Positions 22,172 to 38,699 of a stretch of 64,000 nucleotides of DNA are shown here, piece by piece (the first letter of the stretch is position 1; every line of letters starts with the position of its first letter). This DNA is from Candidatus Nomurabacteria bacterium (GTDB taxonomy: Bacteria > Patescibacteriota > Minisyncoccia > Phycocordibacterales > CAIJYI01), in assembly GCA_943356445.1 (NCBI GenBank), contig CALREZ010000001.1, positions 15,818-79,817 of the forward strand, in the 5' to 3' direction. A model generated the notes under the pieces. The model was not told where the DNA came from. It did no database searches and was given only the letters and a program-made list of their open reading frames with translations. Position numbers and translations under genes: made by a program.

Positions 22172-23800
22172 CTATTTTTTCATGAACCAGAAACAACCGC
22201 AACCGTAATTTTGCGTGTCGGATTGTTCTTTTGTTGCGTTCGTTATCATGCCTGTTCCGATGGCGTTGTCTGGGATAAGGGAAAACTCCACCAGTTCCAA
22301 TCCTTCAAAATATCTCATAATCTGTTCGTATGAATATATGCGATGAGAATTGAAGCATATTTTTGGTTGGCCGAGGGGAACGACAAAAAGAAGATTCCCA
22401 TTTCTTGCAAGCACTCTTTTCAGTTCTTTGATGGCTTTTAGATCTCCTGCCGTATCCAGCGGGTCTCCGTACCGTCCGAGTCCAACGTGCTCAACAGTAT
22501 GCATACAGGAAAGAGAAGAAACGCTTTCGTCTTTGAAGGGGAGATGGAGCAAGTCAGCTTTAGAAGAGGAAAGACCGCTCATTTTTATGTTCGCCGGACG
22601 GTAGTCGTAGAAATGCACGGGGATAAAAGCGGAAAGCATCGTGCAGAAATGAAGCGTGGAGGAAACATCAATATGCTCTGTCGGGTTTATTTTTTTGACT
22701 ATTCTTGCCGCCCATGCGGGGTGGTAGATATAATGCGCGTCAAAATGAGTGGAAGGGGTTCTTTCTGAAAGCGACGGCCTGCGATTTTTCCAAAGTACGG
22801 AAAAATCCGAACGGCTTGTTGAAAGTTTTTGAAAGCGCAAAAAATCTTTCAGAAAGTTTTTATAAGAAAACGTTTTTTTGAAGAGTCTTTTTAAGAAATT
22901 CGGGAAAAGTTTTTTCAACAAAGATTTCCATCCGGAACCCGTATTCCCCGGAGCTTTATATCCGGTCATTCCCGTTTCTCCGGATTTGAGGAATATCGGT
23001 CTTTCAAAGAAGTTCTCAAACCAGTTTCGGGAACCCCAATCGCTTCGCAGATATTCCGCGTCTTCATCCGTAAGAAGGTGGACAAAATTAAGAAGCATTT
23101 TTGTCGCCATAAGGGAGCTTTCATCGGTTTTTTTAGATTCTCTCACGAAGAGGGAATCACCCCCGAAACGGTGGAAATAAAAAGAATTCGGAAGTACGAC
23201 GAACTTTGAACCGTTAGCGAGATGTTTCAGCGTGTATCCCCAAGCCTCATGAAGACCTTTTCCATATTCCCAATAACCGCCGATTTTCTCCCAGCTTTTT
23301 TTGGTATAGAGAAAATTTCCTCCCGGCCCCGGATTGATCGGGCCGGCAAGAAAATCGGCCAGCGACATAACGCCTCCTTTGTATATCCATTTGTGATCTA
23401 TCTTTTTTGTATCGGTTTTGAAGTAATGATATTCGCTGAAAGCGGCAACGTCGGCTTTTTCGGAGATAAGATATTCTTTGAGTTTTTTAATGCTTCCTTT
23501 CTCTAAAATGTTGTCGGCATCCAGATTGAAGATAAGAGGATTTTTTGCTTTTTTTATGCCGATATTTCTGGACGCGGGGCATCCTTTGTTTTGTTTATTT
23601 TTGATATAAACGACCTGCGGATATTTTTTTCGCAATTCCGCGATTTTTTTACCCGTATCATCGGAAGAAAAGTCGTTGACGATAATCACTTCGTCGCCAT
23701 TCTCAAAATTTCCGTGAAAAATAGAATCAACCGATTCCTCCAGTGTATCGGCGCAATTATATGCCGGTATGACGAAGCTGATTTTTGAAATCTTATCCAT
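22172..23800 (-). CDS. bifunctional GT2 glycosyltransferase / methyltransferase-domain protein
   Basis: 542 aa. N-terminus ISFVIPAYNCADTLEESVDS ... VIIVNDFSSDDTG ... DADN is GT2. C-terminus LHLPFKDESVSSLSCMHTVEHVG ... LLFVVP resembles a Methyltransf_11-type domain. Confidence 0.65.
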   Translation of the reverse strand: MDKISKISFVIPAYNCADTLEESVDSIFHGNFENGDEVIIVNDFSSDDTGKKIAELRKKYPQVVYIKNKQNKGCPASRNIGIKKAKNPLIFNLDADNILEKGSIKKLKEYLISEKADVAAFSEYHYFKTDTKKIDHKWIYKGGVMSLADFLAGPINPGPGGNFLYTKKSWEKIGGYWEYGKGLHEAWGYTLKHLANGSKFVVLPNSFYFHRFGGDSLFVRESKKTDESSLMATKMLLNFVHLLTDEDAEYLRSDWGSRNWFENFFERPIFLKSGETGMTGYKAPGNTGSGWKSLLKKLFPNFLKRLFKKTFSYKNFLKDFLRFQKLSTSRSDFSVLWKNRRPSLSERTPSTHFDAHYIYHPAWAARIVKKINPTEHIDVSSTLHFCTMLSAFIPVHFYDYRPANIKMSGLSSSKADLLHLPFKDESVSSLSCMHTVEHVGLGRYGDPLDTAGDLKAIKELKRVLARNGNLLFVVPLGQPKICFNSHRIYSYEQIMRYFEGLELVEFSLIPDNAIGTGMITNATKEQSDTQNYGCGCFWFMKK

Positions 23801-23802
23801 TT

Positions 23803-25590
23803 TTATTTTTTCTTGAATACGATGAGTACGCTGTGGCCAATCAAGTGTTTTGATATTGCAGAAATTCCTGCGTAGGAAATAAGTTTTGATATTCTTCTGA
23901 ATAGAAACTCAAAAAGGCCGGCTTTTTTGTTGAGTCTTTCTTTTATTGAACGGTTTGCTATCTTTAAAGCGTAACCGAGATGGTACTCCTGAAGGGGCTC
24001 AAAATATATCCTTTCTACTTCTATCCCGAAGTGATTTTGAAGAGAGATAAGAGAATTTATATTCCATCGCCCCATATGGTGAGGAGGCATGTTAAGGATG
24101 GTACTATCATCTGTAAAAATAAGGCAGTCGTTATTCGGCACGCTTACAATCATTAATCCCCCTTGTTTAAGTACGGCAAGCGATGCTTCCAAAAAACTTT
24201 TGACGTCGGGAACATGTTCCAATACTTGAAATGAACAGACGACATCATAATATAATTCTTTTTTATGCGAAAAAGTTTCAATACTGTCGGAATAAACGGC
24301 AAGACCTCTTTTTTTACATTCCAAAAGCGCGTCAGAGTTCATTTCCAGCCCTTCGGCGGTTGAACCGTTCCCGGAAACTTTTTTAAGAAAATCTCCGCGC
24401 GCGCACCCGATTTCCAAGACCTTGTCGTTCTTTTTTATAAATTGAGAAGCAATTCCGTGTTCCCATTTTTCGTCCATGTAATACCATGGGAATTTTTGGA
24501 GCTCCTGATAAAAAGAATCGTCACCGGCAATGGCAAAAGGCGCAAAAAAACGATAACCGGTATCAAGACAACGATAAAGACATACGGTTTTTATATTCTT
24601 GAAAAATTTTTCCACATTTATTCCAAATTCTCTTTTATATCCGTCTATTAAAAAAGAAGAAGGAATTTCTTTTTCCAACAAAACATTATCTTTTCCTGTA
24701 ATCGGACTTTTGGGAATCATCTTATTTTTTTCATTAGCAATACTTTCCATTACTTCCTCGTATTTTTTGAAAGGAAAAACATCAAGATATGAACCCGGGG
24801 TTAAATTGAATATCTTCACGTCTGACATTTTTTGTTTTAAAAGTCTGTGGGTCTGAAAGGTTATTCTTGCGCATTTGCAGGTTTCTTCATAAGGAACGAT
24901 AATATCCATTATTGGTATTTTGGGAACATCTTCCGCTTCGTAAAAATGATGTTCTTGATAATAAGGGGTTTTTCCTTCTATATAGCTTTTTTTTACGAGC
25001 CAATCATGCTCCACCCCCATGAGGTACATTGTTTTGAATCCCATGTAATTTGCCGTAATCATTGAGGAGAAAATTATATTTTGAAGATACGGAATTTGTT
25101 TATCAATATCAACATTGAATTTCCCGTCCTCGGTGAAATATTGGTTTTGCGATAAAAATATTTTTTTATTTTTAGAGAATAAATCTCTTTTTTCAATTAA
25201 TTCCTTGTATGTGAAAGGCAAGATCATTATTGTATCTTCATGGACCTTTTTGGAAACGTTCTCTAGGTATTTTTTTGATTCAACGTCTTCTTTAAAAACT
25301 TCTGAACAAAGAATGGAGAAAAATTTTGGATGCACTATATCATACTGCGGGTGAAGATAGAAACCAGCAACAGCAAAAGTCCATTCATCTTTCAGCGGTG
25401 TAAGATCTTGTATTTTTATAGAAGGACCCGTTCCTAATATAAAACACCGCTTTCCTTTGTTGGCGTTTTTATATTTGACATTTTCTTTTAAATCTTTCTC
25501 AATTTGTATTTTTTGAAAAAATAGCCGAATTCTGGTTCTTATCAATGTTCTTTTTTTAAGCCAAATTATTGCTTTTTTTACCTTTTTCAT
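23803..25590 (-). CDS. Maf-like DUF115 (MptE-like) domain fused to class I SAM-methyltransferase
   Basis: 595 aa. N-terminal RCFILGTGPSIKIQDL ... AVAGFYLHPQY fits the DUF115/motility-accessory-factor fold. C-terminal VLEIGCARGDFL ... VVCSFQVLEHVPD ... GGLMIVSVP is a methyltransferase domain. Confidence 0.6.
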   Translation of the reverse strand: MKKVKKAIIWLKKRTLIRTRIRLFFQKIQIEKDLKENVKYKNANKGKRCFILGTGPSIKIQDLTPLKDEWTFAVAGFYLHPQYDIVHPKFFSILCSEVFKEDVESKKYLENVSKKVHEDTIMILPFTYKELIEKRDLFSKNKKIFLSQNQYFTEDGKFNVDIDKQIPYLQNIIFSSMITANYMGFKTMYLMGVEHDWLVKKSYIEGKTPYYQEHHFYEAEDVPKIPIMDIIVPYEETCKCARITFQTHRLLKQKMSDVKIFNLTPGSYLDVFPFKKYEEVMESIANEKNKMIPKSPITGKDNVLLEKEIPSSFLIDGYKREFGINVEKFFKNIKTVCLYRCLDTGYRFFAPFAIAGDDSFYQELQKFPWYYMDEKWEHGIASQFIKKNDKVLEIGCARGDFLKKVSGNGSTAEGLEMNSDALLECKKRGLAVYSDSIETFSHKKELYYDVVCSFQVLEHVPDVKSFLEASLAVLKQGGLMIVSVPNNDCLIFTDDSTILNMPPHHMGRWNINSLISLQNHFGIEVERIYFEPLQEYHLGYALKIANRSIKERLNKKAGLFEFLFRRISKLISYAGISAISKHLIGHSVLIVFKKK

Positions 25591-25699
25591 GTTTTTTGAT
25601 TTGTTTATTATATACCTTTTTGAACCCCATGATAAGCCTTTTTCTTAAAGGTAAAGCATTGTAATTAAAATACGAAAAGTATGGAATGTCTGTTTGCGT

Positions 25700-25741
25700 A
25701 AATAAAAAAAGCGCTTCCTCTAAGAGAAAGCGCTTTGAGTA
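25700..25741 (-). terminator. rho-independent terminator (minus strand)
   Basis: On the minus strand, gcgctttctcttagaggaagcgc hairpin followed by T7, just after the stop of the 25752..27071 gene. Confidence 0.5.
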
Positions 25742-25751
25742 ATCTTTTGTA

Positions 25752-27071
25752 TTATTTTTTTTGCAATAATTTTTTTTCTTCAAGCTTTTTAATCGCATCA
25801 AGAATTTGCTTTTTGTTCATTTGCGATCTTTCAATCATTTGATCAACACTCGTTTTTCCATCGGCGTAAAACAGTACCCAGTATAGGGCATCGAGTTCAT
25901 TGCTTCTCCATGGTTTTTTTTCATGATCTATGCGATTTAATGCTCCGATCTTTGGATAGAGCCCGCGTTTTCCGAGCTGTAGCTCGCAACGAGATTCTGT
26001 CCGCTCATAAAACTTTAGAGAATCAATTTCTTTTATAAGTCTCATGTGCATTTCAATACTTTTGAAGATATTTTCCGCTTTGACAAAATCAAGATTGTCT
26101 AATGAGGTATGATAGTAATCATATTCACAGTATTTATCCCGACAAATAGTTATGCAGGGTATACGGAATCCCGGAGACGAATATTGGCGTTCATCGCTTC
26201 CTTGAGGCACGAACTCATACTCTTTGAATTCTTGTTTTGATGCTGTCAGTACTTTTCTAGCAGCGATATCAACGAAGCTCTTTTCTTCAAAAGAAGGTTT
26301 CAACGAAAAAATCCCAGGACCTCCCACGCAAGATATTATTATCCCGGCCATGACTTTTTTCATTGCGTCTTCATTGTTTTTACAATACGCAACCGCGCCT
26401 ATCGTTTCCGGAACAAAGACAATCCGGTAGCTGTAATTCAGCTTCATTTCCAACATTTTTTTTGCGAGAAAAGTCGTAAGCACAATTCCGCTCAAGTTAT
26501 CATTTGCAAGCGAAGGATGGCAAATATAAGTTGAAATGAGAAACTCATCATTTTTTTTGCCCGGAATCAATAATTCGCCTAAAGAAAGCGAACCGTCCTC
26601 AAGGTTTGAGTCAATGAAAACTTCGTATTTCTCACCCTCCCTAAAATATTTCTTGAAGTCATCATAGCTCACGCAAAATCCCCAGTAATCGTTATAATAC
26701 GAAGTCCTATAGGGTACCGCACAGGGAAGGTTTTCTTTATAGTGTAAATGGGGAACAAGCTCTTTAAAAGTAAGTTTTCCTTTTACTGGCTGACTATATC
26801 CTACCACGTGCAAATTGCTTTTCTTGAAATCAACAATTTTTTCTCCCTGAGAATTTTTTATCCAGCCATCTTTTATATTCCATTCTTTTGGAATTACCCA
26901 GTCGTAGACTTCTTGTCCCGAAGGGTATTCTTTTATTTTCAAAGGAACAATATCTTGCAGTATTTTGAGTGTTTTTCTATTTCCGATGCCAGTAAGACTT
27001 CGTGAAATAGGAAAAAGAAGCTCCATGCATTGTCGTATCTCATTAGTTACTATTGATCGTTTGCTCATGGC
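25752..27071 (-). CDS. hypothetical protein, aminopeptidase-like DUF4910/DUF2172-type domain protein
   Basis: About 440 aa from the internal Met (MSKRSIV), which abuts the upstream gene. It has a YICHPSLANDNLSG acidic/His cluster. Family assignment is tentative. Confidence 0.4.
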   Translation of the reverse strand, partial: AMSKRSIVTNEIRQCMELLFPISRSLTGIGNRKTLKILQDIVPLKIKEYPSGQEVYDWVIPKEWNIKDGWIKNSQGEKIVDFKKSNLHVVGYSQPVKGKLTFKELVPHLHYKENLPCAVPYRTSYYNDYWGFCVSYDDFKKYFREGEKYEVFIDSNLEDGSLSLGELLIPGKKNDEFLISTYICHPSLANDNLSGIVLTTFLAKKMLEMKLNYSYRIVFVPETIGAVAYCKNNEDAMKKVMAGIIISCVGGPGIFSLKPSFEEKSFVDIAARKVLTASKQEFKEYEFVPQGSDERQYSSPGFRIPCITICRDKYCEYDYYHTSLDNLDFVKAENIFKSIEMHMRLIKEIDSLKFYERTESRCELQLGKRGLYPKIGALNRIDHEKKPWRSNELDALYWVLFYADGKTSVDQMIERSQMNKKQILDAIKKLEEKKLLQKK

Positions 27072-27072
27072 T

Positions 27073-27750
27073 TTAATTGCTCTCCGCAGGTTTTTGAAAT
27101 ATGAGGTCCATTGAGTTGTTCCAAAAAGCAAATTTCCCGCGTCCGGTGAACAGTTTTTTAAGAAAACAGAAATGATCTTTAACCGGATTTGAGTAGGCAC
27201 TATCAAGATAGGGATATCTGATTTCTTTGAAACTGAAGCCGAAATTTTCCATGGCTTGTTTTAAGCTATTATCGGATGGAAGGTAGAAATTTTGTTCAGG
27301 AATAAGAAGGGGAAGGGAATTCCAGAGTTTGAAATATAGACTGTTCGTATTTGGCGTCATGAGAAATACAACAAAACCTCCGGGCTTTAAAGCCTCAAAC
27401 GTTTTCTTCATATACAGAAACGGAGTGTCTATATGCTGAATTGTTCCGCGAAAAACAATAAGATCAAAGAAATTTTTTGAATTAAAAAGATCTTTATCAA
27501 ACCGTATTCCTTTCTCTGTGGCGATGGATTTTGCAAATTCGGATATTTCCATTCCATAGGTTTCACCATTCCACTTCAGAACATCAAGGAACTCTCCAGT
27601 GGAGCATCCGACATCCAGAAGTTTTCCGGAACAAATATATTTATTAATGAATTCTTTTTCAGACAAAAAACTTTTTTGTCTTTTTATGTCATTCCCGACC
27701 CGATCTCTAAAATATTCAGGATTGAATACTTCGCGATACTTTTCGTTCAT
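27073..27750 (-). CDS. class I SAM-dependent methyltransferase
   Basis: 225 aa. LLDVGCSTGEFL motif I and FDLIVFRGTIQHI motif. Confidence 0.7.
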   Translation of the reverse strand: MNEKYREVFNPEYFRDRVGNDIKRQKSFLSEKEFINKYICSGKLLDVGCSTGEFLDVLKWNGETYGMEISEFAKSIATEKGIRFDKDLFNSKNFFDLIVFRGTIQHIDTPFLYMKKTFEALKPGGFVVFLMTPNTNSLYFKLWNSLPLLIPEQNFYLPSDNSLKQAMENFGFSFKEIRYPYLDSAYSNPVKDHFCFLKKLFTGRGKFAFWNNSMDLIFQKPAESN

Positions 27751-28447
27751 ATTGCCTCCTTATCTTTTTTAGCAGTTTATATTTCAACTCCGCCATTTCC
27801 CAATCTTCTTCTGTGTTGATGTCTTGTCCTTCGAACTGTGGAACTATCAGCGGTAAAGAGTGTTTGAGATAGAGTGTTCTTTGTTTCAAAAAACTATCGG
27901 TTTTGAGAAAATAAAATTGATTGGAATCGTTGTACGATGGTTCCATGTCTTGGGTTCTTGTAGCGTAATTTTCCGGCCAAAACATTTTTACCATACCGTC
28001 CTCTATCTTCAACGCTTTTTGAATCGGGGCAGGGCAACTCATCACAGGAAATACTGCGTCTGCTTTTTTTTCAATAATCATGCGTTCGGCCGTTTTCAGC
28101 CGTTCGGGGGTAAGAAACGGAGATGTAGGGTAAATACAGCACACATAATCAAATTCGCGTCCGAGTTTTTTATACTCCTCTAACACTTCAATAAGTACTG
28201 TTGCAGTACCCGTTGTGTCTGACGAATTCTCCTGCGAACGCATAAAAGGAACTTTTGCGTCAAGAGCAAGGGAGATATCGGCAATAGTTTTGTCGTTGGT
28301 TGATACCATTGTTTCGCAGAAAACCCCCGAGTGAATTGCCGCATCAATTGAGTATTTGATGATGGGCTGACCGTTGAATTTTTTAATGTTTTTGTGAGGT
28401 ATTCTTTTGCTCCCTCCTCTAGCGGGAATGATAGCAAGTATCTTCAT
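27716..28447 (-). CDS. CMP-nonulosonic acid synthetase (acylneuraminate cytidylyltransferase family)
   Basis: 243 aa. MKILAIIPARGGSKRIPHKNIKKFNGQPII is the NeuA/PseF/LegF family N-terminal signature. Confidence 0.8.
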   Translation of the reverse strand: MKILAIIPARGGSKRIPHKNIKKFNGQPIIKYSIDAAIHSGVFCETMVSTNDKTIADISLALDAKVPFMRSQENSSDTTGTATVLIEVLEEYKKLGREFDYVCCIYPTSPFLTPERLKTAERMIIEKKADAVFPVMSCPAPIQKALKIEDGMVKMFWPENYATRTQDMEPSYNDSNQFYFLKTDSFLKQRTLYLKHSLPLIVPQFEGQDINTEEDWEMAELKYKLLKKIRRQYERKVSRSIQS

Positions 28448-28634
28448 TTTTTATTTACTCCTTCTTTTTGGTTTTAATCTGTTTTTTTGCAAATCAAATA
28501 ATACTATCAAAGTACGAAAATCCGTTTGAAGTATATCCCATATTTAATGAAAAGGTCAAGGGGTAATTTGGTTATATTTTAAAAAATATGATTGTCTTAT
28601 TGCTTAGTTTTAAAAAAAAGGGATAATATAAATC

Positions 28635-29237
28635 ATGAATATCTCAAGAGAAGAAATGAGGAAAAATCTTCAAAAGGAATTTGAACAGTGTTATTTGTCG
28701 GTTCCGAAAACCCATTCTCCTGATATTGAGGGGGTAGTCATTCTTTCTCACGTTGATTATAATTTTGATAGGGAGGACCCGCGGTGTAAATTCTCAGATG
28801 AGCTTATTTCTCGGATAGAATATGGCGCAAAAATGTTTTTAGATTCTTCTTTAAAAGTTTTTTTGATTATGGACGGATGTCGTTCACAGCTTCTTTTAAT
28901 GGAGGAAAGAGCTATTGGTCTCGGTGTCAGACAAGATCAAATTTATCTTTTAGATGCGGGTGATATCGCTTTCTCAAACACAAAAAAACAGATTGAGATT
29001 TTACGCGACGATCCGATTACCAGTAAAATGAAGAAAATAGTTTTTATAACTAATACTTATCACGTTCCCAGAGTCAGGAGAACAGCCTCGCTTTTAATTC
29101 CTGAAAATATTTCTTTTGATGTTTTTGGCGTTCCAAATGATATTTCGCTGTATGATAAACAGAATGCGATTAATGGGGAAATAGAACGAATTCTAAAATA
29201 TATTGAAAAAGGTGATATTGCCATTACTCCTCGCTGA
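28635..29237 (+). CDS. hypothetical protein, DUF218/YdcF-like
   Basis: 200 aa. FITNTYHVPR resembles the DUF218 xTSxYHMxR motif; otherwise unrecognised. Confidence 0.35.
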   Translation: MNISREEMRKNLQKEFEQCYLSVPKTHSPDIEGVVILSHVDYNFDREDPRCKFSDELISRIEYGAKMFLDSSLKVFLIMDGCRSQLLLMEERAIGLGVRQDQIYLLDAGDIAFSNTKKQIEILRDDPITSKMKKIVFITNTYHVPRVRRTASLLIPENISFDVFGVPNDISLYDKQNAINGEIERILKYIEKGDIAITPR

Positions 29238-29247
29238 AAGTATATGA

Positions 29248-29277
29248 AAAAGCACCGACCATACGAATCGGTGCTTT
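29248..29277. terminator. bidirectional terminator between convergent genes
   Basis: aaagcaccga-ccatacgaa-tcggtgcttt hairpin flanked by A/T runs. Confidence 0.55.
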
Positions 29278-29281
29278 GTTA

Positions 29282-30337
29282 TTATTGGAGCTTTTCAAAA
29301 ACTAATTCTTCCCCCTTTTTGATCTTTTTTATGACTTTTTTCCCGACCATCTCGGAGACACGATAGGGAGGTACTCCTTTATTTGATAAAGGTCGGAGAA
29401 AATCCAACATTTCGGAGGTTATTATGGAATTTTTGCGGATATTGTATTTTGCGCGGATTGATCTTTTATAAGATAAAGCGGATTCTTTTTCATTATCTTC
29501 CACTTTTTTTATTCCGTCACCAAGCGCCATATATACTTCTTCTGCGCATTGCACCATCTTTTTCCATGATTTCGGGTCCATAGCAAACTTATGGTCTTGT
29601 CCGTCACGAGAATTGTCATCTGTAAAATGTTTTTCAAATACAACCGCACCGAAGGGGACAGCTCCAAGAACGGTTGAGTATCCTTTTGTGTGGTCTGATA
29701 ATCCTAAAATTATATCGGGATAAATATCCCTATAAGTTTTTAAGACATTCAAATTTATATATTTGAAATTTTCAGTGTTTGCCGTGTAATTGGTGTTGCA
29801 TTGCATCAGTACTATATTGTCGGTATATTTTTGAATCGTTTCCATTGATCGAGTAATATCTTCCAATGAAGAAGCCCCCGTCGCAATAATTACCGGCTTT
29901 CCTTTTTTTGCAATGTACTCAATAATTTCGAGCCAGGTGATATCGCCCGATCCAATTTTGTAAGCATTTACAAACGGATCAACGTGGTCAACAGATTCAA
30001 AATCATAAGGACTCGTTAAATACTCAATACCGACTTCATCGCATTTTGCTTTAAGCTTCGCTGTCCATTCAAACGAAATGCTCGCGTCCTTGTAGGTCTC
30101 AAAAACTGATTTTTTCCAAGCGGCCTGATTGGATAGTTTTCCGAGAACATTAAACCCGACCTTGCTGATCAGTTTTTCTGCCTGAAAATTCTGGAACTTG
30201 GCAGCATGCGCTCCCGTTTCTTTTGCGAGTTCGATAAGTTTGAATGCACGAGTAATATCGCCGTCATGGTTAGAGGCAATATCTGCGATAAAGTATAACG
30301 GTCCGGTTTTTGTAATAGATATTTGACCGATTTTCAT
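29282..30337 (-). CDS. nonulosonic acid synthase (NeuB/PseI/LegI family, with C-terminal SAF domain)
   Basis: Start at MKIGQISI. PLYFIADIASNHDGDITRAFKLIELAKETGAHAAKFQNF is the NeuB-family N-terminal signature; C-terminus is a SAF domain. Confidence 0.85.
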   Translation of the reverse strand: MKIGQISITKTGPLYFIADIASNHDGDITRAFKLIELAKETGAHAAKFQNFQAEKLISKVGFNVLGKLSNQAAWKKSVFETYKDASISFEWTAKLKAKCDEVGIEYLTSPYDFESVDHVDPFVNAYKIGSGDITWLEIIEYIAKKGKPVIIATGASSLEDITRSMETIQKYTDNIVLMQCNTNYTANTENFKYINLNVLKTYRDIYPDIILGLSDHTKGYSTVLGAVPFGAVVFEKHFTDDNSRDGQDHKFAMDPKSWKKMVQCAEEVYMALGDGIKKVEDNEKESALSYKRSIRAKYNIRKNSIITSEMLDFLRPLSNKGVPPYRVSEMVGKKVIKKIKKGEELVFEKLQ

Positions 30338-30364
30338 TTCGATTCCCCTTTGTTTCAAAAAACA

Positions 30365-31309
30365 CTATTTCTGACAAGCAGAATAACTTTTTTTTGATAC
30401 TTGGTCAATATTAAAATTATGGTAGTCTTTTTTCATTTCATTTAATCCGTCAAAAACACTGAGGCCTTGACCCAGCGTTTTTTTAAAAAACGAAGTGTTT
30501 AAGGACGTGTTTTTTGGTCGAGCGATATTTGATTGAATATCATTGGAAGAAATCGGTTTTACTTTGTTCGTCTCATAAGAAAAAGCGTCTGCAAGCAATT
30601 TCAAGAAAAAATATTTGCTTAAAACCTCTTCCGAACCGATATTTAAAATTCCGGAGATTTTTTTCTTTTCTAAAATATGTTTAAGCGTCCGTGCAAGCTG
30701 TTTTGTGTAAACGGGATTAAAAAAAGAATCAGTAAAACCATTTATTGTTTTTTTGTTTTTCCAGTTTTGAAGCGCCCATTCAGCTATGGCATTTCGCGGA
30801 GGGATATGAAAACCGAAGATATGAGTGCGGATGACCAGTGAGCCTTTGTCTGCAGAAAGTACACTCTTTTCGGCTTCAAGTTTGCTTTTTGAATAAACAT
30901 TTAACGGGTGTGTCGGTTCCGTTTCTCTGTAATTTCCTATTTTTCCGTCAAAGAGCGAATCGGTTGAAATGTATATAAATTTTGTATGTTTGTTTTTTGT
31001 TTCAGTCAAAACCTTTGTCGCTTTTACATTGACGAGATTCGCTTCTTTTTTGTTTATTTCACAGAATCCGACATCCACTAGCGCAGCACAGTGAATAATA
31101 ATATCGGGGTGGATATCCTCAAGAATTTTTTTTATTTTTTCGGAGTCTTTTAAGTTGGCAGTGATATAATGAACCAAAGGAATTTTCTTGAAACCATCAT
31201 TTTTTATCAGTCCAAAAACGGCATATTTCTTGTCTTCGCTGAAGATTTTCGTCATATCACGGCCAAGCATCCCGCCAGCGCCTGTAATCAGTACTTTTTT
31301 TGGGGCCAT
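30365..31309 (-). CDS. RmlD-like NAD(P)-dependent sugar-nucleotide reductase
   Basis: 314 aa. KVLITGAGGMLGRD Rossmann motif and YSKSKLEAE (YxxxK). The size and organisation fit the dTDP-4-dehydrorhamnose reductase substrate-binding family. Confidence 0.65.
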   Translation of the reverse strand: MAPKKVLITGAGGMLGRDMTKIFSEDKKYAVFGLIKNDGFKKIPLVHYITANLKDSEKIKKILEDIHPDIIIHCAALVDVGFCEINKKEANLVNVKATKVLTETKNKHTKFIYISTDSLFDGKIGNYRETEPTHPLNVYSKSKLEAEKSVLSADKGSLVIRTHIFGFHIPPRNAIAEWALQNWKNKKTINGFTDSFFNPVYTKQLARTLKHILEKKKISGILNIGSEEVLSKYFFLKLLADAFSYETNKVKPISSNDIQSNIARPKNTSLNTSFFKKTLGQGLSVFDGLNEMKKDYHNFNIDQVSKKSYSACQK

Positions 31310-31311
31310 TA

Positions 31312-32295
31312 TTATTCCGTTACTAGTTTTTTAATCTCATCTTTTGTCAGCCAAATATCATTTTTATCACTGGTATAACTGAACCCTGCTTTTACTTTTT
31401 TCCCTTTCGCATAATATTTTTTATAGAGACCTTCATTAAAACTGATGTCCGGAAGGATCATAAAGTAATCGCCAAGGGAATAGGTGTTGATATCGTTCTC
31501 TGTAATGAGTATTTCGTGCATTTTTTCTCCTGGTCGGAGTCCGATTATTTTTTTCTTTGCCTTTGGAGCAATTGCATCAAAAAGGTCGCCGATTTTCATA
31601 CTTGGAATCTTTGGAACGAATATCTCCCGTCCTTCCATGTTTTTGAGCGCAAAAAGTACGAGTTGAAAACTTTGAGGGAGAGCAAGCCAGAAACGCGTCA
31701 TATCCGGATTCGTAACATCGACTGTTTTTATATTTTCTCCGTTTTTTAGGATTGTTTCTATTATACTGCCTCTTGAACCGATTACATTACCGTAGCGCAC
31801 AACACTAAAAGGTATTTTGTCCCCAGAATACATGTTCGCGGAGCAAAAAAGTTTTTCAGCGGCGAGTTTGGTTGAACCGTAGAGGTTGATGGGGTAAACC
31901 GCTTTGTCTGTCGATATGAGAACGGCTTTGCCTACCTTTTGGTCCAAAGCTGCTTCTATCACATTTTGCGTACCAATAATATTGGTTTTTACCGCTTCAA
32001 AAGGATTATATTCCATCGCTGGGACTTGTTTTAGCGCTGCGGCATGGACAATGACATCTACCCCAGAAAAAGCGCGTTGAAGTCGGGGGAGATCGCGAAT
32101 ATCTCCTATGAAGAACCGAATGCGAGAGTCTTTTATTTCCTGTTGCATTTGATGCTGTTTGAATTCATCGCGGCTGAAGATAATGACTTTTTTAGGATTG
32201 CATTTTGCTAAAACAAATTTTGCAAAATTTTTTCCGAAAGAGCCGGTTCCCCCAGTAATGAGCACGGTTTTTCCCTTAAGAGTTGTTTCGTTCAT
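31312..32295 (-). CDS. UDP-N-acetylglucosamine 4,6-dehydratase (PseB/FlaA1/CapE-like short form)
   Basis: 327 aa. GKTVLITGGTGSFGKNF ... IIFSRDEFKQHQM is characteristic of inverting UDP-GlcNAc 4,6-dehydratases. Confidence 0.75.
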   Translation of the reverse strand: MNETTLKGKTVLITGGTGSFGKNFAKFVLAKCNPKKVIIFSRDEFKQHQMQQEIKDSRIRFFIGDIRDLPRLQRAFSGVDVIVHAAALKQVPAMEYNPFEAVKTNIIGTQNVIEAALDQKVGKAVLISTDKAVYPINLYGSTKLAAEKLFCSANMYSGDKIPFSVVRYGNVIGSRGSIIETILKNGENIKTVDVTNPDMTRFWLALPQSFQLVLFALKNMEGREIFVPKIPSMKIGDLFDAIAPKAKKKIIGLRPGEKMHEILITENDINTYSLGDYFMILPDISFNEGLYKKYYAKGKKVKAGFSYTSDKNDIWLTKDEIKKLVTE

Positions 32296-32362: not shown

Positions 32363-33430
32363 TTAGTCTTTTGTAAGGTTTAATACTTTTGTTATTGTTT
32401 CAGCGAAATTCTCAGGGAGAAACTTTTTGTATTTTTCGCTTTGAAGGAAGCGTTCTATCGCACAGAGATACTCGTTGTATCTTTCTTCCGTAACGGAAAA
32501 GAGATAATCGGCCAGTTCCTTTTCGTTTTTGAATTTTCTTCGGTCTATAAAAACATCCTCGTCAATATAATCGGCAACATTCGGCGCTCCAAGATATATT
32601 GGCACTGTTTTTGCCGCAAGGGCATCAAAAATCTTTTCAGTGATATAGCCGTTTTGTTCCGTGTTCTCGTAGCACAAAGCAAATTTGTATTGAGAAAGCG
32701 TATTAATCTTATTTGGAACCTCGCCTTGAAATTTTTTGTATTTTTTGACCAGCCAAGGAATTCTTTTTTGCCACTTTGTTATCGGTTGGTTCCAGTATAT
32801 GCCAAACAAATCGAAATGTTCGGGGTAATTGGCATCAAAATACGTTATGGTATTTCTCCTGGCCGTATATAGTTCCAGCGGAAGAGAAGATGTTTTATTT
32901 GTTATGATGTTTACTAAAAATTTTCTCTCAGAAAACGTTCGGTTATTTCGTATTGGTTTTGATGTTGCGGAAGGATGATGAACCTTAAAAAATTTTTTGT
33001 TGTCAATAATGTCGTCATCCCAAGTTAAAATACGGTTGAAATGTTTCCATAGAGCCGGGTCGTAGTTGCGCGGGCAAATGACTTTTCCTTCCATGATTAA
33101 AAAAACAAGTTTATCGGACATGGATAATTTTTCCGCTTCTGTGACAAGCTCTCTTTTCGGCCATATTTGCGGGAGTTTTAATCCGAGGATTTTTTTTAAT
33201 CGCCATTTCCACGATTTTTTGTGCTCGTTGGAAACGCTTTCGGCGTTAAGAAAAAGGATCCACCCGCACCCTTCCACGGAATTGCTGTCTGCGGTCGTAA
33301 ATTCATACCCGAGGAACTGAAGTTTATCGCGAAGCATGCGCCATGTTTCGGTGACGTTATTTATATCCGGGCCGAACATCCTGTTATTGCCGAGGGGGCG
33401 GCTTGGAACCTGAAGAAGTATTTTTTTCAT
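32363..33430 (-). CDS. alpha-1,3-fucosyltransferase (GT10)
   Basis: QYKFALCYENTEQNGYITEKIFDALAAKTVPIYLGAPN matches the GT10 FucT motif (YKFxLxFENS ... GYxTEK). Start set at MKKILL, overlapping the upstream stop by 4 bp. Confidence 0.7.
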   Translation of the reverse strand: MKKILLQVPSRPLGNNRMFGPDINNVTETWRMLRDKLQFLGYEFTTADSNSVEGCGWILFLNAESVSNEHKKSWKWRLKKILGLKLPQIWPKRELVTEAEKLSMSDKLVFLIMEGKVICPRNYDPALWKHFNRILTWDDDIIDNKKFFKVHHPSATSKPIRNNRTFSERKFLVNIITNKTSSLPLELYTARRNTITYFDANYPEHFDLFGIYWNQPITKWQKRIPWLVKKYKKFQGEVPNKINTLSQYKFALCYENTEQNGYITEKIFDALAAKTVPIYLGAPNVADYIDEDVFIDRRKFKNEKELADYLFSVTEERYNEYLCAIERFLQSEKYKKFLPENFAETITKVLNLTKD

Positions 33431-34299
33431 TGGTTTGTTTTGAACGCGCTTTTTATCTGACGGTAGATCTTTTCCCCGAAAAGATGTTTTAAAAACTTTT
33501 TGAAACGCAGTAACTCCCATCGTATTTTGTTTTGGGATTTGAACCAAAAATGTTTGATCCATGAAATGACAAAAAACAAGAAGGCTTGAACCTTACGAGG
33601 AAATTTTTTCAGAAGAGCGTTACGGAATAAGAGGAATTCAGAAAAGGGAAGCATCGTCTGCAATTTTTTAACAATCATAGGCATGGCGCTTTGCGAAAGA
33701 TGAGCTCCGTCTAAAAAGTACTGTTGTTTTGTATCATCGTTGGGGTTTAGGAGTTCATTCAGTATTGAAAGTACGCGGATGTTTCTATTTTTTGCTTCTT
33801 CCAGCAGCTTCTCGTTGAATTCTTTTTTTAATCGGTTTATTTCTCTGTCGTCGGCATCATCCGGATATTTTTCACGACCGGAAAATCTCGAAACGATGAG
33901 AGGCGAAGACCCTAAAAGAATTACCTCATATCCCATGTTTTTTATCTCGGTGATGGCGGAAAAATACCTTTCCAAAACGTCATCAATCATTTTTTCTATG
34001 CTTTCGTTTTGATGCGATACGTGCTTCATGAGATATATCATACGGCAATCCAGTTCGCCGAAAGACAAAAGAACAAGATCTTTTTTATCTATTTTTTCAA
34101 GTATTTTGAACAGGATTTCACGATCGTGAGACTTGGCGCTTTCTTTGTATAAATTGTATGCCAAAGATGGCCCAGTAAAATATGTCTTAAACGACGGGAT
34201 TTTATTTACTGTTTTTGCCGGCCATATCGGATAAAGAAAATTTGTTCCGGAGAAGACGTGGACGTGGCTATCGCCGACGCAGTGTATCGTTCTAACCAT
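33427..34299 (-). CDS. SGNH/GDSL-hydrolase family protein
   Basis: 290 aa. Block I CVGDSHV, block III GSSPL, block V DGAHLS (DxxH). Possible glycan O-acyl esterase or transferase. Confidence 0.5.
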   Translation of the reverse strand: MVRTIHCVGDSHVHVFSGTNFLYPIWPAKTVNKIPSFKTYFTGPSLAYNLYKESAKSHDREILFKILEKIDKKDLVLLSFGELDCRMIYLMKHVSHQNESIEKMIDDVLERYFSAITEIKNMGYEVILLGSSPLIVSRFSGREKYPDDADDREINRLKKEFNEKLLEEAKNRNIRVLSILNELLNPNDDTKQQYFLDGAHLSQSAMPMIVKKLQTMLPFSEFLLFRNALLKKFPRKVQAFLFFVISWIKHFWFKSQNKIRWELLRFKKFLKHLFGEKIYRQIKSAFKTNQ

Positions 34300-35599: not shown

Positions 35600-35603
35600 G
35601 AAA

Positions 35604-36559: not shown

Positions 36560-36916
36560 ATGACAGTAAAAGGGGTCGGTATTGATATTGCGGAGGTCAA
36601 AAAATTTGCTTCTTTTAAGAAAAACGGGGAAGACCGATTTTTGTCTAATAATTTCACCGAAAAAGAGTTGGAATACTGTTTCTCTTTTGCGGATTCAAGT
36701 ATTCATCTCGCGGCAACTTTTGCCGCGAAGGAGGCGGTGTGGAAAGCTTTTGGGAGGGCCGATATGCTTCAGTCAGCGATTGAGGTCAGGCGGAATGGCT
36801 CAGGGTATCCGACAGTGTGGATAAAAAACCGGCCGCAAAAATCTATTTTACTTTCTATAAGTCACACAACGGAAACAGCCGTCGCCGTCGCAATTATGAC
36901 GAATAGAAAAAAATAA
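36560..36916 (+). CDS. acpS: holo-[acyl-carrier-protein] synthase (4'-phosphopantetheinyl transferase)
   Basis: 118 aa. GVGIDIAEV ... FAAKEAVWKAF are AcpS motifs. Confidence 0.85.
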   Translation: MTVKGVGIDIAEVKKFASFKKNGEDRFLSNNFTEKELEYCFSFADSSIHLAATFAAKEAVWKAFGRADMLQSAIEVRRNGSGYPTVWIKNRPQKSILLSISHTTETAVAVAIMTNRKK

Positions 36917-37000
36917 AAATAGAAAAATTACAAAAATATAACCGCTTTGGCAATCTTTCCATTTTTCTGTTTTCTTATTTTTTATATTATTATTTTATTT

Positions 37001-38044: not shown

Positions 38045-38045
38045 T

Positions 38046-38692: not shown

Positions 38693-38699
38693 ATAAAAA

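What the first reader, a model, noticed from the sequence alone, without database searches (positions are those of the whole stretch)
23803..32295. Atypical nonulosonic-acid-like module: PseB-type dehydratase + RmlD-like reductase + NeuB-family synthase + CMP-transferase + Maf(DUF115)::methyltransferase fusion, with no aminotransferase
The sequence shows a FlaA1/PseB-like UDP-GlcNAc 4,6-dehydratase, a NeuB-family synthase with SAF domain and a NeuA-family cytidylyltransferase. The canonical PseC/LegC-type aminotransferase, the N-acetyltransferase and the UDP-sugar hydrolase are not seen in the window. An RmlD-like 4-reductase is present instead.

That combination would predict a 9-deoxy, 7-hydroxy (not 7-amino) nonulosonic acid, or else a 6-deoxy-HexNAc branch unrelated to NeuB.

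The 595-aa protein beside the module fuses a DUF115/Maf-like domain to a methyltransferase. Maf/DUF115 proteins are the candidate pseudaminic/legionaminic acid transferases of flagellin glycosylation systems. This makes it a candidate transferase (and methylator) for the nonulosonic sugar, here in a likely non-flagellar, surface-glycan context.
Basis: partly seen in the sequence, partly recalled or inferred. Interest (0 to 1): 0.65.

Follow-up and report, generated by a model that had tools for sequence, protein, structure and literature searches.

The report
Aminotransferase-free nonulosonic acid sugar pathway
This stretch encodes a compact, widely conserved but uncharacterised route to a sialic-acid-like nine-carbon sugar that probably carries a hydroxyl where pseudaminic acid carries an amino group. 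Beside it sits a sialyltransferase-like enzyme fused to a methyltransferase that probably attaches the sugar to an exported surface polysaccharide.

Summary
On the minus strand of 23803-32295 lie a PseB-type UDP-GlcNAc 4,6-dehydratase, an RmlD-like SDR, a divergent NeuB-family synthase and a PseF-type cytidylyltransferase. They are followed by a methyltransferase, a DUF4910 protein and a 595-aa fusion protein.

No PseC, PseH, PseG or NeuC homolog occurs in the 64 kb or in 10 kb on either side.

The cassette is not a one-off. The RmlD-like gene sits directly upstream of this NeuB clade in 71 of 80 loci from many phyla. Of 54 loci with full flanks, 30 have no aminotransferase.

The predicted sugar, a 3,5,9-trideoxy (7-hydroxy) nonulosonic acid, has a natural precedent. 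The Fusobacterium nucleatum ATCC 25586 O-antigen contains both 6-deoxy-L-AltNAc and such an acid. I found no genes assigned to its synthesis.

The surroundings are a Wzm/Wzt ABC-transporter glycan cluster, not a flagellar one.

Open points are the UDP-release step, the exact role of the RmlD-like enzyme, and the product itself. I class this as a new variant of a known kind, of moderate to high interest.

The parts
31312..32295 (-). PseB-type inverting UDP-GlcNAc 4,6-dehydratase/5-epimerase (327 aa)
   Evidence: TIGR03589 PseB scores 436.9 bits, above the cutoff of 407.75; FnlA scores only 242 against 730. Polysacc_synt_2 E = 9e-94. PDB 2gn4 FlaA1 E = 4e-103.
30365..31309 (-). RmlD-like SDR (314 aa). 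Proposed NAD(P)H-dependent C4 reductase of UDP-4-keto-6-deoxy-L-AltNAc; this role is inferred.
   Evidence: PF04321 scores 174.8 bits. TIGR01214 scores 176.5, below the cutoff of 224. Best PDB matches are MAT2B and archaeal RmlD, about 1e-28. GAGGMLG and YSKSK motifs are present. The gene lies directly upstream of NeuB-like in 71 of 80 related loci.
29282..30337 (-). NeuB-family nonulosonate synthase of a distinct clade (351 aa from the ATG)
   Evidence: PF03102 scores 237.8 bits. It falls below both equivalog cutoffs: NeuB_NnaB 268.8 against 399.65, and PseI 235.5 against 340.25. It is about 30% identical to SpsE, PseI and NmNeuB, and catalytic motifs are retained. The clade holds thousands of members at 55-68% identity.
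28635..29237 (+). DUF218-like protein (200 aa) on the opposite strand, between the synthase and the cytidylyltransferase. Role unknown.
   Evidence: PF02698 scores 26.7 bits, just under the cutoff of 27.6. It is conserved at this position in L002 and L003, at 93.5% identity to the L002 copy. It is absent from the other related loci.
27716..28447 (-). PseF-type CMP-nonulosonate synthetase (243 aa)
   Evidence: TIGR03584 PseF scores 266 bits, above the cutoff of 205.7. CTP_transf_3 E = 3.9e-25.
27073..27750 (-). Class I SAM methyltransferase (225 aa). Probably tailors the sugar.
   Evidence: Methyltransf_23 E = 2.5e-19. It is conserved next to PseF and DUF4910 in L002 and L003.
25752..27068 (-). 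DUF4910/DUF2172/HTH_47 metallopeptidase-like protein (438 aa). Proposed sugar-amide tailoring enzyme; biochemistry unknown.
   Evidence: DUF4910 E = 2.7e-88. PDB 3k9t (CA_C2195) E = 9.5e-108. A role in modified-carbohydrate synthesis was proposed from gene neighbourhoods (PMC4000134).
24721..25590 (-). N-terminal Maf/DUF115, sialyltransferase-like domain of the 595-aa protein (residues 1 to about 290). Proposed CMP-nonulosonate transferase.
23803..24720 (-). C-terminal SAM methyltransferase module of the 595-aa protein (residues about 291-595)
   Evidence: Methyltransf_23 E = 7.6e-18. Homologs are about 330-aa stand-alone methyltransferases or fusions to GT2, GT4 or GT11 domains. The nearest solved structures are UbiG-like methyltransferases.
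34316..36422 (-). Wzm (35604-36422) and Wzt with a C-terminal Wzt_C domain (34316-35599). This is the ABC exporter of the glycan that the module serves.
   Evidence: ABC2_membrane, ABC_tran and Wzt_C hits. The Wzm-Wzt pair lies upstream of the same triad in about 22 Chloroflexi loci, and in L011 and L002.
32363..33562 (-). GT10-like glycosyltransferase directly upstream of pseB. It is either a fucosyltransferase or an untested candidate for a 'masked' UDP-sugar hydrolase.
   Evidence: Glyco_transf_10 E = 1.7e-17. It holds the same position in L002 at 52% identity. It is not found in the other related loci.
22172..23800 (-). GT2 + DUF268 methyltransferase-like fusion (542 aa), immediately downstream of the 595-aa gene. 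This is a second transferase-methylase fusion.
   Evidence: Glycos_transf_2 E = 6.1e-32 and DUF268 E = 6.1e-16.

Best explanation
The module is a minimal, aminotransferase-free branch of pseudaminic-type nonulosonic acid synthesis.

**Proposed steps**
1. [quoted passage not shown] The enzyme family is shown; the reaction is inferred from equivalog membership.
2. The RmlD-like SDR reduces C4, giving UDP-6-deoxy-L-AltNAc or its C4 epimer. Inferred.
3. UDP is removed by an enzyme not yet identified. This is the gap.
4. The NeuB-clade synthase condenses the free 6-deoxy-hexosamine with PEP. The product would be a 5-acetamido-3,5,9-trideoxy-L-glycero-L-(gluco or manno)-non-2-ulosonic acid, with a 7-hydroxyl in place of the 7-amino group. 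Inferred.
5. The PseF-type enzyme makes the CMP-sugar. The family is shown.
6. The adjacent methyltransferase and the DUF4910 protein tailor the sugar. Speculative.
7. The Maf/sialyltransferase-like N-domain of the 595-aa protein transfers the sugar from CMP to a glycan. Its fused methyltransferase methylates the added sugar or the acceptor sugar. The fold is shown; the function is inferred.
8. The glycan is assembled on a lipid carrier and exported by the neighbouring Wzm/Wzt ABC transporter. The nonulosonic acid may be its non-reducing-end cap.
For: **Gene content of the window**
- PseB and PseF pass NCBIfam equivalog cutoffs. The synthase and the reductase do not pass theirs.
- The synthase keeps the NeuB catalytic motifs. 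It forms its own clade, about 30% identical to PseI, NeuB and SpsE.
- No PseC, PseH, PseG or NeuC homolog is found in the 64 kb or the flanking 10 kb on each side. The only aminotransferase is an ornithine aminotransferase.

**Conservation elsewhere**
- The RmlD-like gene lies directly upstream of this NeuB clade in 71 of 80 genome loci. These span Patescibacteria, Bacteroidota, Chloroflexota, Firmicutes, Proteobacteria, Nitrospirota and others.
- PseB lies within 7 kb in 61 of 80 loci.
- 30 of the 54 loci with full flanks have no aminotransferase.

**Chemical precedent**
- The F. nucleatum ATCC 25586 O-antigen contains both 6-deoxy-L-AltNAc and a 5-acetimidoylamino-3,5,9-trideoxy-L-glycero-L-gluco-nonulosonic acid (Vinogradov 2017, as cited in PMC13014188).
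- RmlD-family enzymes reduce L-configured 4-keto-6-deoxy nucleotide sugars (established knowledge of RmlD).

**The transferase**
- 99 of 100 family members match PF01973.
- The family profile matches Cst-I/Cst-II.
- The model has pLDDT 93.6.
- The same methyltransferase module is fused to GT2, GT4 or GT11 domains in other proteins.

**Export context**
- Wzm/Wzt co-localise with the triad in the window, in L002, in L011 and in about 22 Chloroflexi loci.
Against: - No UDP-sugar hydrolase or hydrolysing 2-epimerase is present in the window or in any related locus examined. The pathway as written therefore has a hole.
- The RmlD-like gene stays next to the synthase, not next to PseB, when other genes are inserted. 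It also persists in the 24 of 54 loci that carry an aminotransferase. It may therefore do something other than replace PseC.
- 43 of 80 related loci carry a distantly PseH-like GNAT beside the synthase. That hints at an amino intermediate in those organisms.
- Only part of the genome is visible, so PseC, PseH and PseG could be encoded elsewhere.
- The Wzt C-terminal domain is only 37% identical between the window and its close relative L002, whereas the ATPase domain is 83% identical. The cap-recognition idea therefore lacks support from conservation.
- No biochemical data exist for any member.
Confidence: 0.5

Rival explanations
1. This is an ordinary CMP-pseudaminic acid pathway whose pseC, pseH and pseG genes lie elsewhere in the genome. 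The RmlD-like enzyme only diverts some PseB product to a 6-deoxy-L-hexosamine used by one of the many glycosyltransferases.
For: - PseB and PseF pass the Pse equivalog cutoffs.
- Only about 84 kb of the genome could be inspected.
- Related loci often carry a PseH-like GNAT, and some carry DegT aminotransferases.
Against: - The synthase fails the PseI cutoff (235.5 against 340.25). It belongs to a separate clade, about 30% identical to PseI.
- The RmlD-like gene is welded to this synthase clade in 71 of 80 loci.
- The DegT proteins of related loci score far below the PseC cutoff, about 210-223 against 423.5.
- No PseG was seen in any locus.
Confidence: 0.15
2. The RmlD-like SDR is not, or not only, a C4 reductase. 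It may be the functional substitute for the missing UDP-sugar hydrolase, releasing UDP by transient NAD-dependent oxidation and elimination, as GH4 and GH109 glycosidases cleave glycosides. Alternatively it may be a redox epimerase or reductase acting on the sugar just before or after condensation. The product would then differ, for example a 7-keto acid or an epimeric nonulosonic acid.
For: - PseG and NeuC are consistently absent while the extra SDR is consistently present across 80 loci.
- When other genes are inserted between PseB and the synthase, the SDR remains immediately upstream of the synthase, often overlapping it.
- The SDR persists in loci that have an aminotransferase.
Against: - No SDR of the RmlD family is known to release a nucleotide. 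This rests on my knowledge, not on a test.
- The simple 4-reductase reading matches the known chemistry of the family.
- 6-deoxy-L-AltNAc coexists with the trideoxy acid in F. nucleatum, as the reductase reading predicts.
Confidence: 0.15
3. There are two unrelated branches. PseB plus the RmlD-like enzyme make a UDP-6-deoxy-L-HexNAc for direct incorporation. The NeuB-like enzyme plus PseF make a different ulosonic acid from another precursor.
For: - No enzyme links the UDP-sugar to a free sugar.
- 6-deoxy-L-AltNAc is itself a polymer residue in F. nucleatum.
Against: - The conserved, often overlapping gene order PseB, RmlD-like, NeuB-like across many phyla argues for one pathway.
- No alternative precursor genes accompany the synthase. 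There is no NeuC, and no sugar-6-phosphate synthase plus phosphatase pair.
Confidence: 0.1

Closest known systems
CMP-pseudaminic acid pathway (PseB, PseC, PseH, PseG, PseI, PseF) of Campylobacter jejuni and Helicobacter pylori
   Same: The first enzyme (PseB, above the equivalog cutoff) and the last (PseF, above the cutoff) are the same. Both have a NeuB-family condensation step, start from UDP-GlcNAc, and use L-configured intermediates.
   Different: There is no PseC, PseH or PseG. An RmlD-like SDR is present instead. The synthase lies outside the PseI equivalog and is about 30% identical to PseI. The predicted product has a 7-OH rather than a 7-NHAc.
Sugars of the Fusobacterium nucleatum ATCC 25586 O-antigen: 6-deoxy-L-AltNAc and 5-acetimidoylamino-3,5,9-trideoxy-L-glycero-L-gluco-non-2-ulosonic acid (Vinogradov et al. 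2017, cited in PMC13014188)
   Same: These are exactly the two products expected from PseB plus a 4-reductase, and from condensing that sugar with PEP. Both occur in a surface polysaccharide.
   Different: The link is chemical only. I could not inspect the F. nucleatum genome, and no biosynthetic genes are reported in the papers searched. The F. nucleatum sugar carries a 5-acetimidoyl group. Its configuration is tentative.
UDP-L-RhaNAc/L-QuiNAc and UDP-L-FucNAc pathways (WbvB/WbvR/WbvD; FnlA/FnlB/FnlC, CapE/CapF/CapG). From my own knowledge, not tested here.
   Same: A Polysacc_synt_2 dehydratase/epimerase is followed by an SDR reductase acting on a UDP-4-keto-6-deoxy-L-HexNAc.
   Different: The dehydratase here is PseB-type, not FnlA-type (242 against a cutoff of 730). 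There is no 2-epimerase. The reductase is coupled to a NeuB-family synthase and a CMP-transferase.
Maf (motility-associated factor, DUF115/PF01973) flagellin nonulosonic acid transferases and GT42 sialyltransferases Cst-I/Cst-II
   Different: The domain is only about 290 aa, without the flanking domains of the 600-plus-aa Maf proteins. There are no flagellin or flagellar genes nearby, and the context is a Wzm/Wzt polysaccharide cluster. It falls below the Pfam threshold (19.5 against 34.6).
Clostridium acetobutylicum CA_C2195 (DUF4910, PDB 3k9t) neighbourhood, with CA_C2196 'methyltransferase + DUF115', spsE and spsF (Das et al. 2014, PMC4000134)
   Same: A DUF4910 homolog (E = 9.5e-108) sits next to a methyltransferase/DUF115 fusion, a NeuB homolog and a CTP_transf_3 enzyme.
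   Different: The domain order in the fusion is reversed as described: methyltransferase first in CA_C2196, DUF115 first here. The Clostridium locus has ATP-grasp and acetyltransferase genes and lies in a region later treated as a flagellin glycosylation island (PMC13317340).
Chain terminators of ABC-transporter-dependent O-antigens (WbdD methyltransferase/kinase of E. coli O8/O9a; WbbB beta-Kdo transferase of Klebsiella O12). From my own knowledge.
   Same: A Wzt with a C-terminal carbohydrate-binding domain lies close to an enzyme that could add a methyl group and/or an ulosonic acid to the chain end.
   Different: There is no sequence relationship to WbdD or GT99. Termination is a hypothesis only. 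The Wzt C-terminal domain is poorly conserved even in the closest relative.

Membership tests
CMP-pseudaminic acid pathway | PseB, the inverting UDP-GlcNAc 4,6-dehydratase | tested here: met
   TIGR03589 scores 436.9 bits, above the cutoff of 407.75; PDB 2gn4 E = 4e-103.
CMP-pseudaminic acid pathway | PseC aminotransferase (DegT family) | tested here: not met
   No DegT_DnrJ_EryC1 hit in any ORF of the window or in the contig flanks. The rest of the genome was not visible.
CMP-pseudaminic acid pathway | PseH N-acetyltransferase and PseG UDP-sugar hydrolase | tested here: not met
   No GNAT, Glyco_tran_28_C or Epimerase_2 hit in the window or among the called genes of L001, L093 and L095.
CMP-pseudaminic acid pathway | PseI synthase (TIGR03586 equivalog) | tested here: not met
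   235.5 bits against a cutoff of 340.25. About 30% identity to PseI 8h2c, in a separate clade.
CMP-pseudaminic acid pathway | PseF cytidylyltransferase | tested here: met
   TIGR03584 scores 266 bits, above the cutoff of 205.7.
NeuB family of PEP-condensing nonulosonate synthases (PF03102) | NeuB TIM-barrel domain with metal- and PEP-binding residues | tested here: met
   PF03102 scores 237.8 bits against 22.1. The KFQ, YKIGSGD, NYT, SDH, EKHFT and DH motifs align with NmNeuB, PseI and SpsE.
NeuB family of PEP-condensing nonulosonate synthases (PF03102) | C-terminal SAF/antifreeze-like domain | tested here: inconclusive
   PF08666 scores 19.9 bits against a cutoff of 21. However, the NeuB_NnaB and PseI models align to their last residue, and most clade members carry a precomputed SAF hit.
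RmlD dTDP-4-dehydrorhamnose reductase (TIGR01214) | Equivalog-level score | tested here: not met
   176.5 bits against a cutoff of 224.05. The domain-level PF04321 hit is clear at 174.8 bits.
RmlD dTDP-4-dehydrorhamnose reductase (TIGR01214) | SDR cofactor motif and the S/T-Y-K catalytic residues | tested here: met
   GAGGMLG, STDS and YSKSK were read from the translation. Assignment to catalytic positions is by eye, not by structural alignment.
Maf / DUF115 (PF01973) nonulosonic acid transferases | Pfam PF01973 match above the gathering score | tested here: not met
   19.5 bits against 34.6 for the window protein itself. However, 99 of 100 homologs match, with a best E-value of 1.8e-15.
Maf / DUF115 (PF01973) nonulosonic acid transferases | Sialyltransferase-like (GT-A variant) fold shared with Maf and GT42 | tested here: met
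Maf / DUF115 (PF01973) nonulosonic acid transferases | Flagellin as acceptor, with location in a flagellar glycosylation island | tested here: not met
   There are no flagellin or flagellar genes in the 64 kb or its flanks. The context is a Wzm/Wzt glycan cluster.
Maf / DUF115 (PF01973) nonulosonic acid transferases | CMP-nonulosonate-dependent transfer activity | not testable with these tools
   Requires an enzyme assay.
Wzt-coupled O-antigen chain terminators (WbdD/WbbB type) | A terminating modification recognised by the Wzt C-terminal domain | tested here: inconclusive
   Wzt_C is present, and wzm-wzt co-localise with the cassette in several phyla. However, the C-terminal domain is only 37% identical in the closest relative and is not BLAST-detectable in the Chloroflexi loci.

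The most novel reading that the evidence does not exclude
PseB, the RmlD-like SDR, the NeuB-clade synthase and PseF would together be the so far unassigned biosynthetic route to 7-hydroxy (3,5,9-trideoxy, fusaminic-type) nonulosonic acids. It would be a four-gene pathway that needs neither an aminotransferase nor a PseG-type hydrolase, with the SDR or a masked glycosyltransferase releasing UDP. It would be spread by horizontal transfer through many phyla, including ultra-small Patescibacteria. In this organism the sugar would be installed and methylated by a bifunctional Maf-like transferase-methyltransferase, as the chain-ending cap of a Wzm/Wzt-exported glycan.
Probability: 0.3. Interest if true: 0.75.

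Novelty: new variant of a known kind. Interest (0 to 1): 0.6.

Why it matters
Nonulosonic acids shape how bacteria are seen by hosts, phages and other cells. The known bacterial routes (Neu, Leg, Pse and their epimers) all have assigned genes.

A 3,5,9-trideoxy acid has been known chemically since 2017, from a colorectal-cancer-associated Fusobacterium. I found no genes assigned to it. If this cassette makes that class of sugar, four things follow.

- It gives a genetic marker for such sugars in thousands of genomes and metagenomes.
- It shows that a Pse-like sugar can be made with four genes.
- It offers new enzymes for chemoenzymatic synthesis of sialic acid analogues: a synthase with possibly different C4 stereochemistry, and a short Maf-like transferase that acts on glycans rather than flagellin.
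- It points to sialic-acid-like surface decoration in Patescibacteria, whose cell-surface biology is almost unknown.

Tried and rejected
1. A single-sequence AlphaFold run on the whole 595-aa protein gave pLDDT 31 and was unusable. It was replaced by a run on the N-domain with an alignment.
2. The word-index homolog search found no relative of the N-domain; all 65 hits other than the query itself covered only the methyltransferase half. The exhaustive HMMER search was needed.
3. I considered that the Wzt carbohydrate-binding domain is conserved together with the cassette, which would mean it recognises the nonulosonic acid. I rejected this as evidence. The C-terminal domain is 37% identical in L002, against 83% for the ATPase domain, and is not BLAST-detectable in the Chloroflexi loci.
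4. I looked for a universal UDP-releasing enzyme. The gene after the synthase is a GT4 in Chloroflexi and a short GT2 in gammaproteobacteria. A GT10 precedes pseB only in the window lineage. No single family is shared, so no assignment was made.
5. The AsnB-like amidotransferase at 9928-11808 could be an acetamidino synthase linked to the cassette. It occurs near the cassette in only 3 of 80 loci, plus L009 and L010, so I treat it as a passing note.
6. The class III aminotransferase at 59588-60859 is an ornithine aminotransferase among arginine-metabolism genes. It is not part of the module.
7. The GNATs and DegT proteins of related loci are not canonical PseH or PseC. All score below those cutoffs.
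8. Literature searches for a characterised PseB-plus-reductase nonulosonic acid pathway, for 6-deoxy-L-AltNAc biosynthesis, and for nonulosonic acids in Patescibacteria found nothing relevant.
9. I could not test the F. nucleatum ATCC 25586 genome.

Full report
**1. What is in the interval**

The minus strand of 23803-32295 carries seven tightly packed genes, and one small gene sits on the plus strand.

| Coordinates | Strand | Gene | Evidence |
|---|---|---|---|
| 31312-32295 | - | PseB-type dehydratase | TIGR03589 436.9 bits, cutoff 407.75; FnlA only 242 against 730. Best solved relative H. pylori FlaA1, 4e-103. |
| 30365-31309 | - | RmlD-like SDR | PF04321 174.8 bits; below the RmlD equivalog cutoff, 176.5 against 224. 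Intact GxxGxxG and YxxxK motifs. |
| 29282-30337 | - | NeuB-family synthase | PF03102 237.8 bits. |
| 28635-29237 | + | Weak DUF218 protein | |
| 27716-28447 | - | PseF-type cytidylyltransferase | 266 bits, cutoff 205.7. |
| 27073-27750 | - | Methyltransferase | |
| 25752-27068 | - | DUF4910/DUF2172/HTH_47 protein | |
| 23803-25590 | - | 595-aa fusion protein | See section 2. |

Two of its domain calls are weaker than stated. The SAF domain scores 19.9 bits, against a cutoff of 21. The DUF115 domain of the 595-aa protein scores 18.6-19.5 bits, against 34.6.

**2. The 595-aa protein**

The word-index homolog search found only relatives of the C-terminal half. These are about 330-aa stand-alone methyltransferases, or the same module fused to GT2, GT4 or GT11 domains. 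None matched residues 1-300.

An exhaustive HMMER search with residues 1-300 found 3,763 cluster representatives, mostly 270-310 aa proteins. Several results then converge on a sialyltransferase-like fold.

- Of 100 aligned members, 99 match PF01973 (MptE-like, formerly DUF115/MAF_flag10), with a best E-value of 1.8e-15.
- A profile of the family matches the C. jejuni sialyltransferases Cst-I and Cst-II at 5e-6 to 9e-5. It matches the Magnetospirillum Maf protein at 0.015, through the GNGPS and IYLxGxD motifs.
- AlphaFold with this alignment gave a confident model, pLDDT 93.6 and pTM 0.90.
- Foldseek gives the same families.

The N-domain is therefore a Maf/sialyltransferase-like domain.

In the closest relative the two halves are separate adjacent genes of 290 and about 305 aa. 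That relative is locus L002, from a MAG labelled Candidatus Parcubacteria, and its halves are 79% and 83% identical to the window protein. The window protein is thus a recent fusion of two units that work side by side.

The architecture is not new. The window's DUF4910 protein is a close homolog of C. acetobutylicum CA_C2195 (3k9t, E = 9.5e-108). The neighbour of CA_C2195, CA_C2196, was described as 'methyltransferase + DUF115', next to spsE and spsF (PMC4000134).

**3. What is missing**

Pfam scans of the ORFs of the whole window found no DegT-type aminotransferase, no GNAT or hexapeptide acetyltransferase, no PseG-like hydrolase and no NeuC-like hydrolase. Precomputed annotations of the same contig agree, including about 10 kb beyond each end.

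The one aminotransferase, at 59588-60859, is an ornithine aminotransferase that sits among arginine-metabolism genes.

**4. The surroundings**

The module lies inside a large glycan cluster containing:

- Wzm and a Wzt with a Wzt_C domain, directly upstream;
- GT10- and GT11-type transferases;
- GDP-fucose genes (gmd, fcl, manC);
- NDP-heptose genes (gmhA, a kinase, a nucleotidyltransferase and gmhB) and galE;
- many GT2, GT4 and methyltransferase genes, and a GT2-DUF268 fusion;
- two MBOAT proteins;
- an O-antigen-ligase-like protein with TPR repeats.

There are no flagellar genes.

**5. The cassette is widespread**

The synthase belongs to a large clade. The search returned 8,000 hits at E below 1e-20, and the best 120 are 60-92% identical. 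In a genome scan, at least 534 species genomes had a relative.

I examined the 80 best loci. They come from Patescibacteria, Bacteroidota, Chloroflexota, Firmicutes, Gamma- and Betaproteobacteria, Nitrospirota, Planctomycetota, Omnitrophota and others. They include cultured Chitinophaga, Winogradskyella, Photobacterium, Psychrobacter, Eubacterium and Clostridium strains.

| Feature | Count |
|---|---|
| RmlD-like gene directly upstream of the synthase | 71 of 80 |
| PseB within 7 kb | 61 of 80 (most exceptions are truncated contigs) |
| A cytidylyltransferase in the locus | 69 of 80 |
| Loci with at least 8 kb on both sides that lack any detectable aminotransferase | 30 of 54 |

Independent look-ups with Pfam annotation show the same order in Yanofskybacteria, KSB1, Bacteroidota and a JGI isolate.

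The synthase clade is monophyletic in a neighbour-joining tree. It is about 30% identical to each of PseI (8h2c), N. meningitidis NeuB and B. subtilis SpsE, and it keeps the catalytic motifs. It is a bona fide NeuB-family enzyme. It belongs to neither the PseI nor the NeuB/LegI equivalog, and it is not a Kdo8P or DAHP synthase.

**6. Most likely function**

The simplest chemistry runs as follows.

1. PseB makes UDP-4-keto-6-deoxy-L-AltNAc.
2. An RmlD-family reductase reduces C4. That family normally reduces L-configured 4-keto-6-deoxy nucleotide sugars.
3. After loss of UDP, the synthase condenses the 6-deoxy-hexosamine with PEP. The product is a 5-acetamido-3,5,9-trideoxy-nonulosonic acid.
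4. The PseF-type enzyme activates this acid.

The O-antigen of F. nucleatum ATCC 25586 is [->4-beta-Non5Am-4-alpha-L-6dAltNAc3PCho-3-beta-D-QuiNAc-]. It contains both 6-deoxy-L-AltNAc and a 5-acetimidoylamino-3,5,9-trideoxy-L-glycero-L-gluco-non-2-ulosonic acid (Vinogradov 2017, as cited in PMC13014188; also PMC7371886).

By my own stereochemical derivation, L-glycero-L-gluco is the C4 epimer of the Pse configuration. It derives from the same L-altro hexose. A synthase clade distinct from PseI would fit that.

Searches for 'fusaminic', for trideoxy-ulosonic acids and for 6-deoxy-AltNAc found no paper that assigns genes to this sugar.

**7. What does not fit or is unknown**

- **UDP release.** No UDP-releasing enzyme is present here or in any related locus. 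The gene after the synthase is a GT4 in Chloroflexi and a short GT2 in gammaproteobacteria. A GT10 precedes pseB only in the window lineage. PseG is itself a 'masked' glycosyltransferase, by my own knowledge, so these are candidates. None is universal.
- **The SDR's position.** The SDR stays glued to the synthase rather than to PseB when genes are inserted. It is also retained in the loci that have an aminotransferase. Those loci carry either an aldo-keto-reductase / CTP_transf_3 / aminotransferase trio, or a GFO-type oxidoreductase plus DegT downstream of PseF. The SDR might therefore replace the hydrolase, or act at another step.
- **The GNAT.** 43 of 80 loci have a GNAT next to the synthase that is distantly PseH-like, 55-64 bits against a cutoff of 93. 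The window has none.
- **Genome coverage.** Only about 84 kb of this genome was visible.

**8. Link to export**

Wzm-Wzt lie immediately upstream of the cassette in the window, in L002, in a KSB1 locus and in about 22 Chloroflexi loci. In the Chloroflexi loci a roughly 540-aa protein with a weak KpsC/KpsS-like hit (E = 0.003) lies between wzt and pseB, and TagB-like proteins are also present.

This suggests that the sugar decorates ABC-transporter-dependent glycans, possibly as a terminal cap. The Wzt C-terminal domain diverges fast, however: 37% identity in L002 against 83% for the ATPase domain. I treat the cap idea as a hypothesis only.

**9. Verdict**

The module is best described as a new variant of nonulosonic acid biosynthesis. 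It is widespread and uncharacterised, and it is coupled to a short Maf-like transferase fused to a methyltransferase in a polysaccharide context. My confidence in the specific product is about 0.5.

Noticed in passing
window 23803-25590, compared with L002 14780-16571: The DUF115-like domain and the methyltransferase are one 595-aa ORF in the window. In the closest relative they are two abutting genes of 290 and about 305 aa, 79% and 83% identical to the window protein. This is a recent gene fusion or split, or a frameshift in one assembly.
   Followed up: partly
window 34316-35599, compared with L002 2648-3967: The Wzt ATPase domain is 83% identical between the two relatives, but the C-terminal carbohydrate-binding domain is only 37% identical. 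Wzm is 96% identical and the sugar-synthesis genes 92-96%. The recognised chain end probably differs between near-identical clusters.
   Followed up: partly
window 9928-11808 (+): An AsnB-type glutamine amidotransferase (626 aa) lies inside the glycan cluster. Enzymes of this type make acetamidino groups on sugars (PseA, WbpG; my own knowledge). The F. nucleatum trideoxy acid carries a 5-acetimidoyl group. The gene is found near the cassette in only 3 of 80 loci, plus L009 and L010.
   Followed up: partly
window 36560-47884: A possible acyl-carrier-dependent acylation module. It comprises a phosphopantetheinyl transferase-like ORF (36560-36916, by homology to L002), an HAD/FkbH-like protein (36947-38044), a 139-aa ORF (38273-38692), two FabG-like SDRs (38700-40178) and two MBOAT O-acyltransferases (40182-41642 and 46388-47884).
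   Followed up: no
window 22172-23800 (-): A second transferase-methylase fusion (GT2 + DUF268) lies directly downstream of the DUF115-methyltransferase fusion. Several further methyltransferases are in the cluster (2790-3491, 4637-5377, 11811-12548, 14598-15398). Together they suggest a heavily methylated glycan.
   Followed up: no
L004/L005 182-4853 (Yanofskybacteria contigs): A second, different ulosonic-acid-like cluster lies beside the triad. It has a 636-aa NeuB + AP_endonuc_2 (xylose-isomerase-like TIM barrel) fusion, a 414-aa protein with no family, a methyltransferase, a CTP_transf_3 enzyme and a radical SAM enzyme.
   Followed up: no
L007, L015, L017, L019, L045, L079, L088: downstream of the PseF gene: A GFO/IDH/MocA oxidoreductase plus a DegT aminotransferase (below the PseC cutoff) follow the cytidylyltransferase. 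In L007 a second GNAT and a weak polysialyltransferase-like protein are also present. This could be late-stage oxidation and amination of the CMP-sugar.
   Followed up: partly
L011, L021, L028, L035-L039, L043, L052, L081, L090, L091: A recurring trio sits between PseB and the RmlD-like gene: an aldo-keto reductase, an SpsF-like CTP_transf_3 enzyme and an aminotransferase. The aminotransferase is DegT-type or class III, and is sometimes fused to the cytidylyltransferase as a 677-aa protein. A similar AKR/cytidylyltransferase fusion was noted in Vibrio sp. B9-25K2 (PMC7371886).
   Followed up: partly
L047 6285-7904, L054 6426-8027, L051 4852-6543 (Chloroflexi): A roughly 540-aa protein lies between wzt and pseB, with only a weak Capsule_synth (KpsC/KpsS-like) hit at E = 0.003. 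The family occurs in 25 of 80 loci. It is a candidate alternative transferase for the ulosonic acid. TagB-like Glyphos_transf proteins lie downstream.
   Followed up: partly
L093 1644-3988 (about 6-8 kb upstream of the window start on the source contig): A TraG/VirD4-type coupling protein and a PemK toxin gene border the glycan cluster. A PemK gene is also inserted between wzm and wzt in L002. These hint that the region is mobile.
   Followed up: no
window 48881-51154 (+): A 757-aa protein combines an O-antigen-ligase (Wzy_C) domain with C-terminal TPR repeats. It lies in a genome whose closest named relative is a Candidatus Parcubacteria MAG, a group not usually credited with lipopolysaccharide. 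The acceptor of the glycan is unknown.
   Followed up: no
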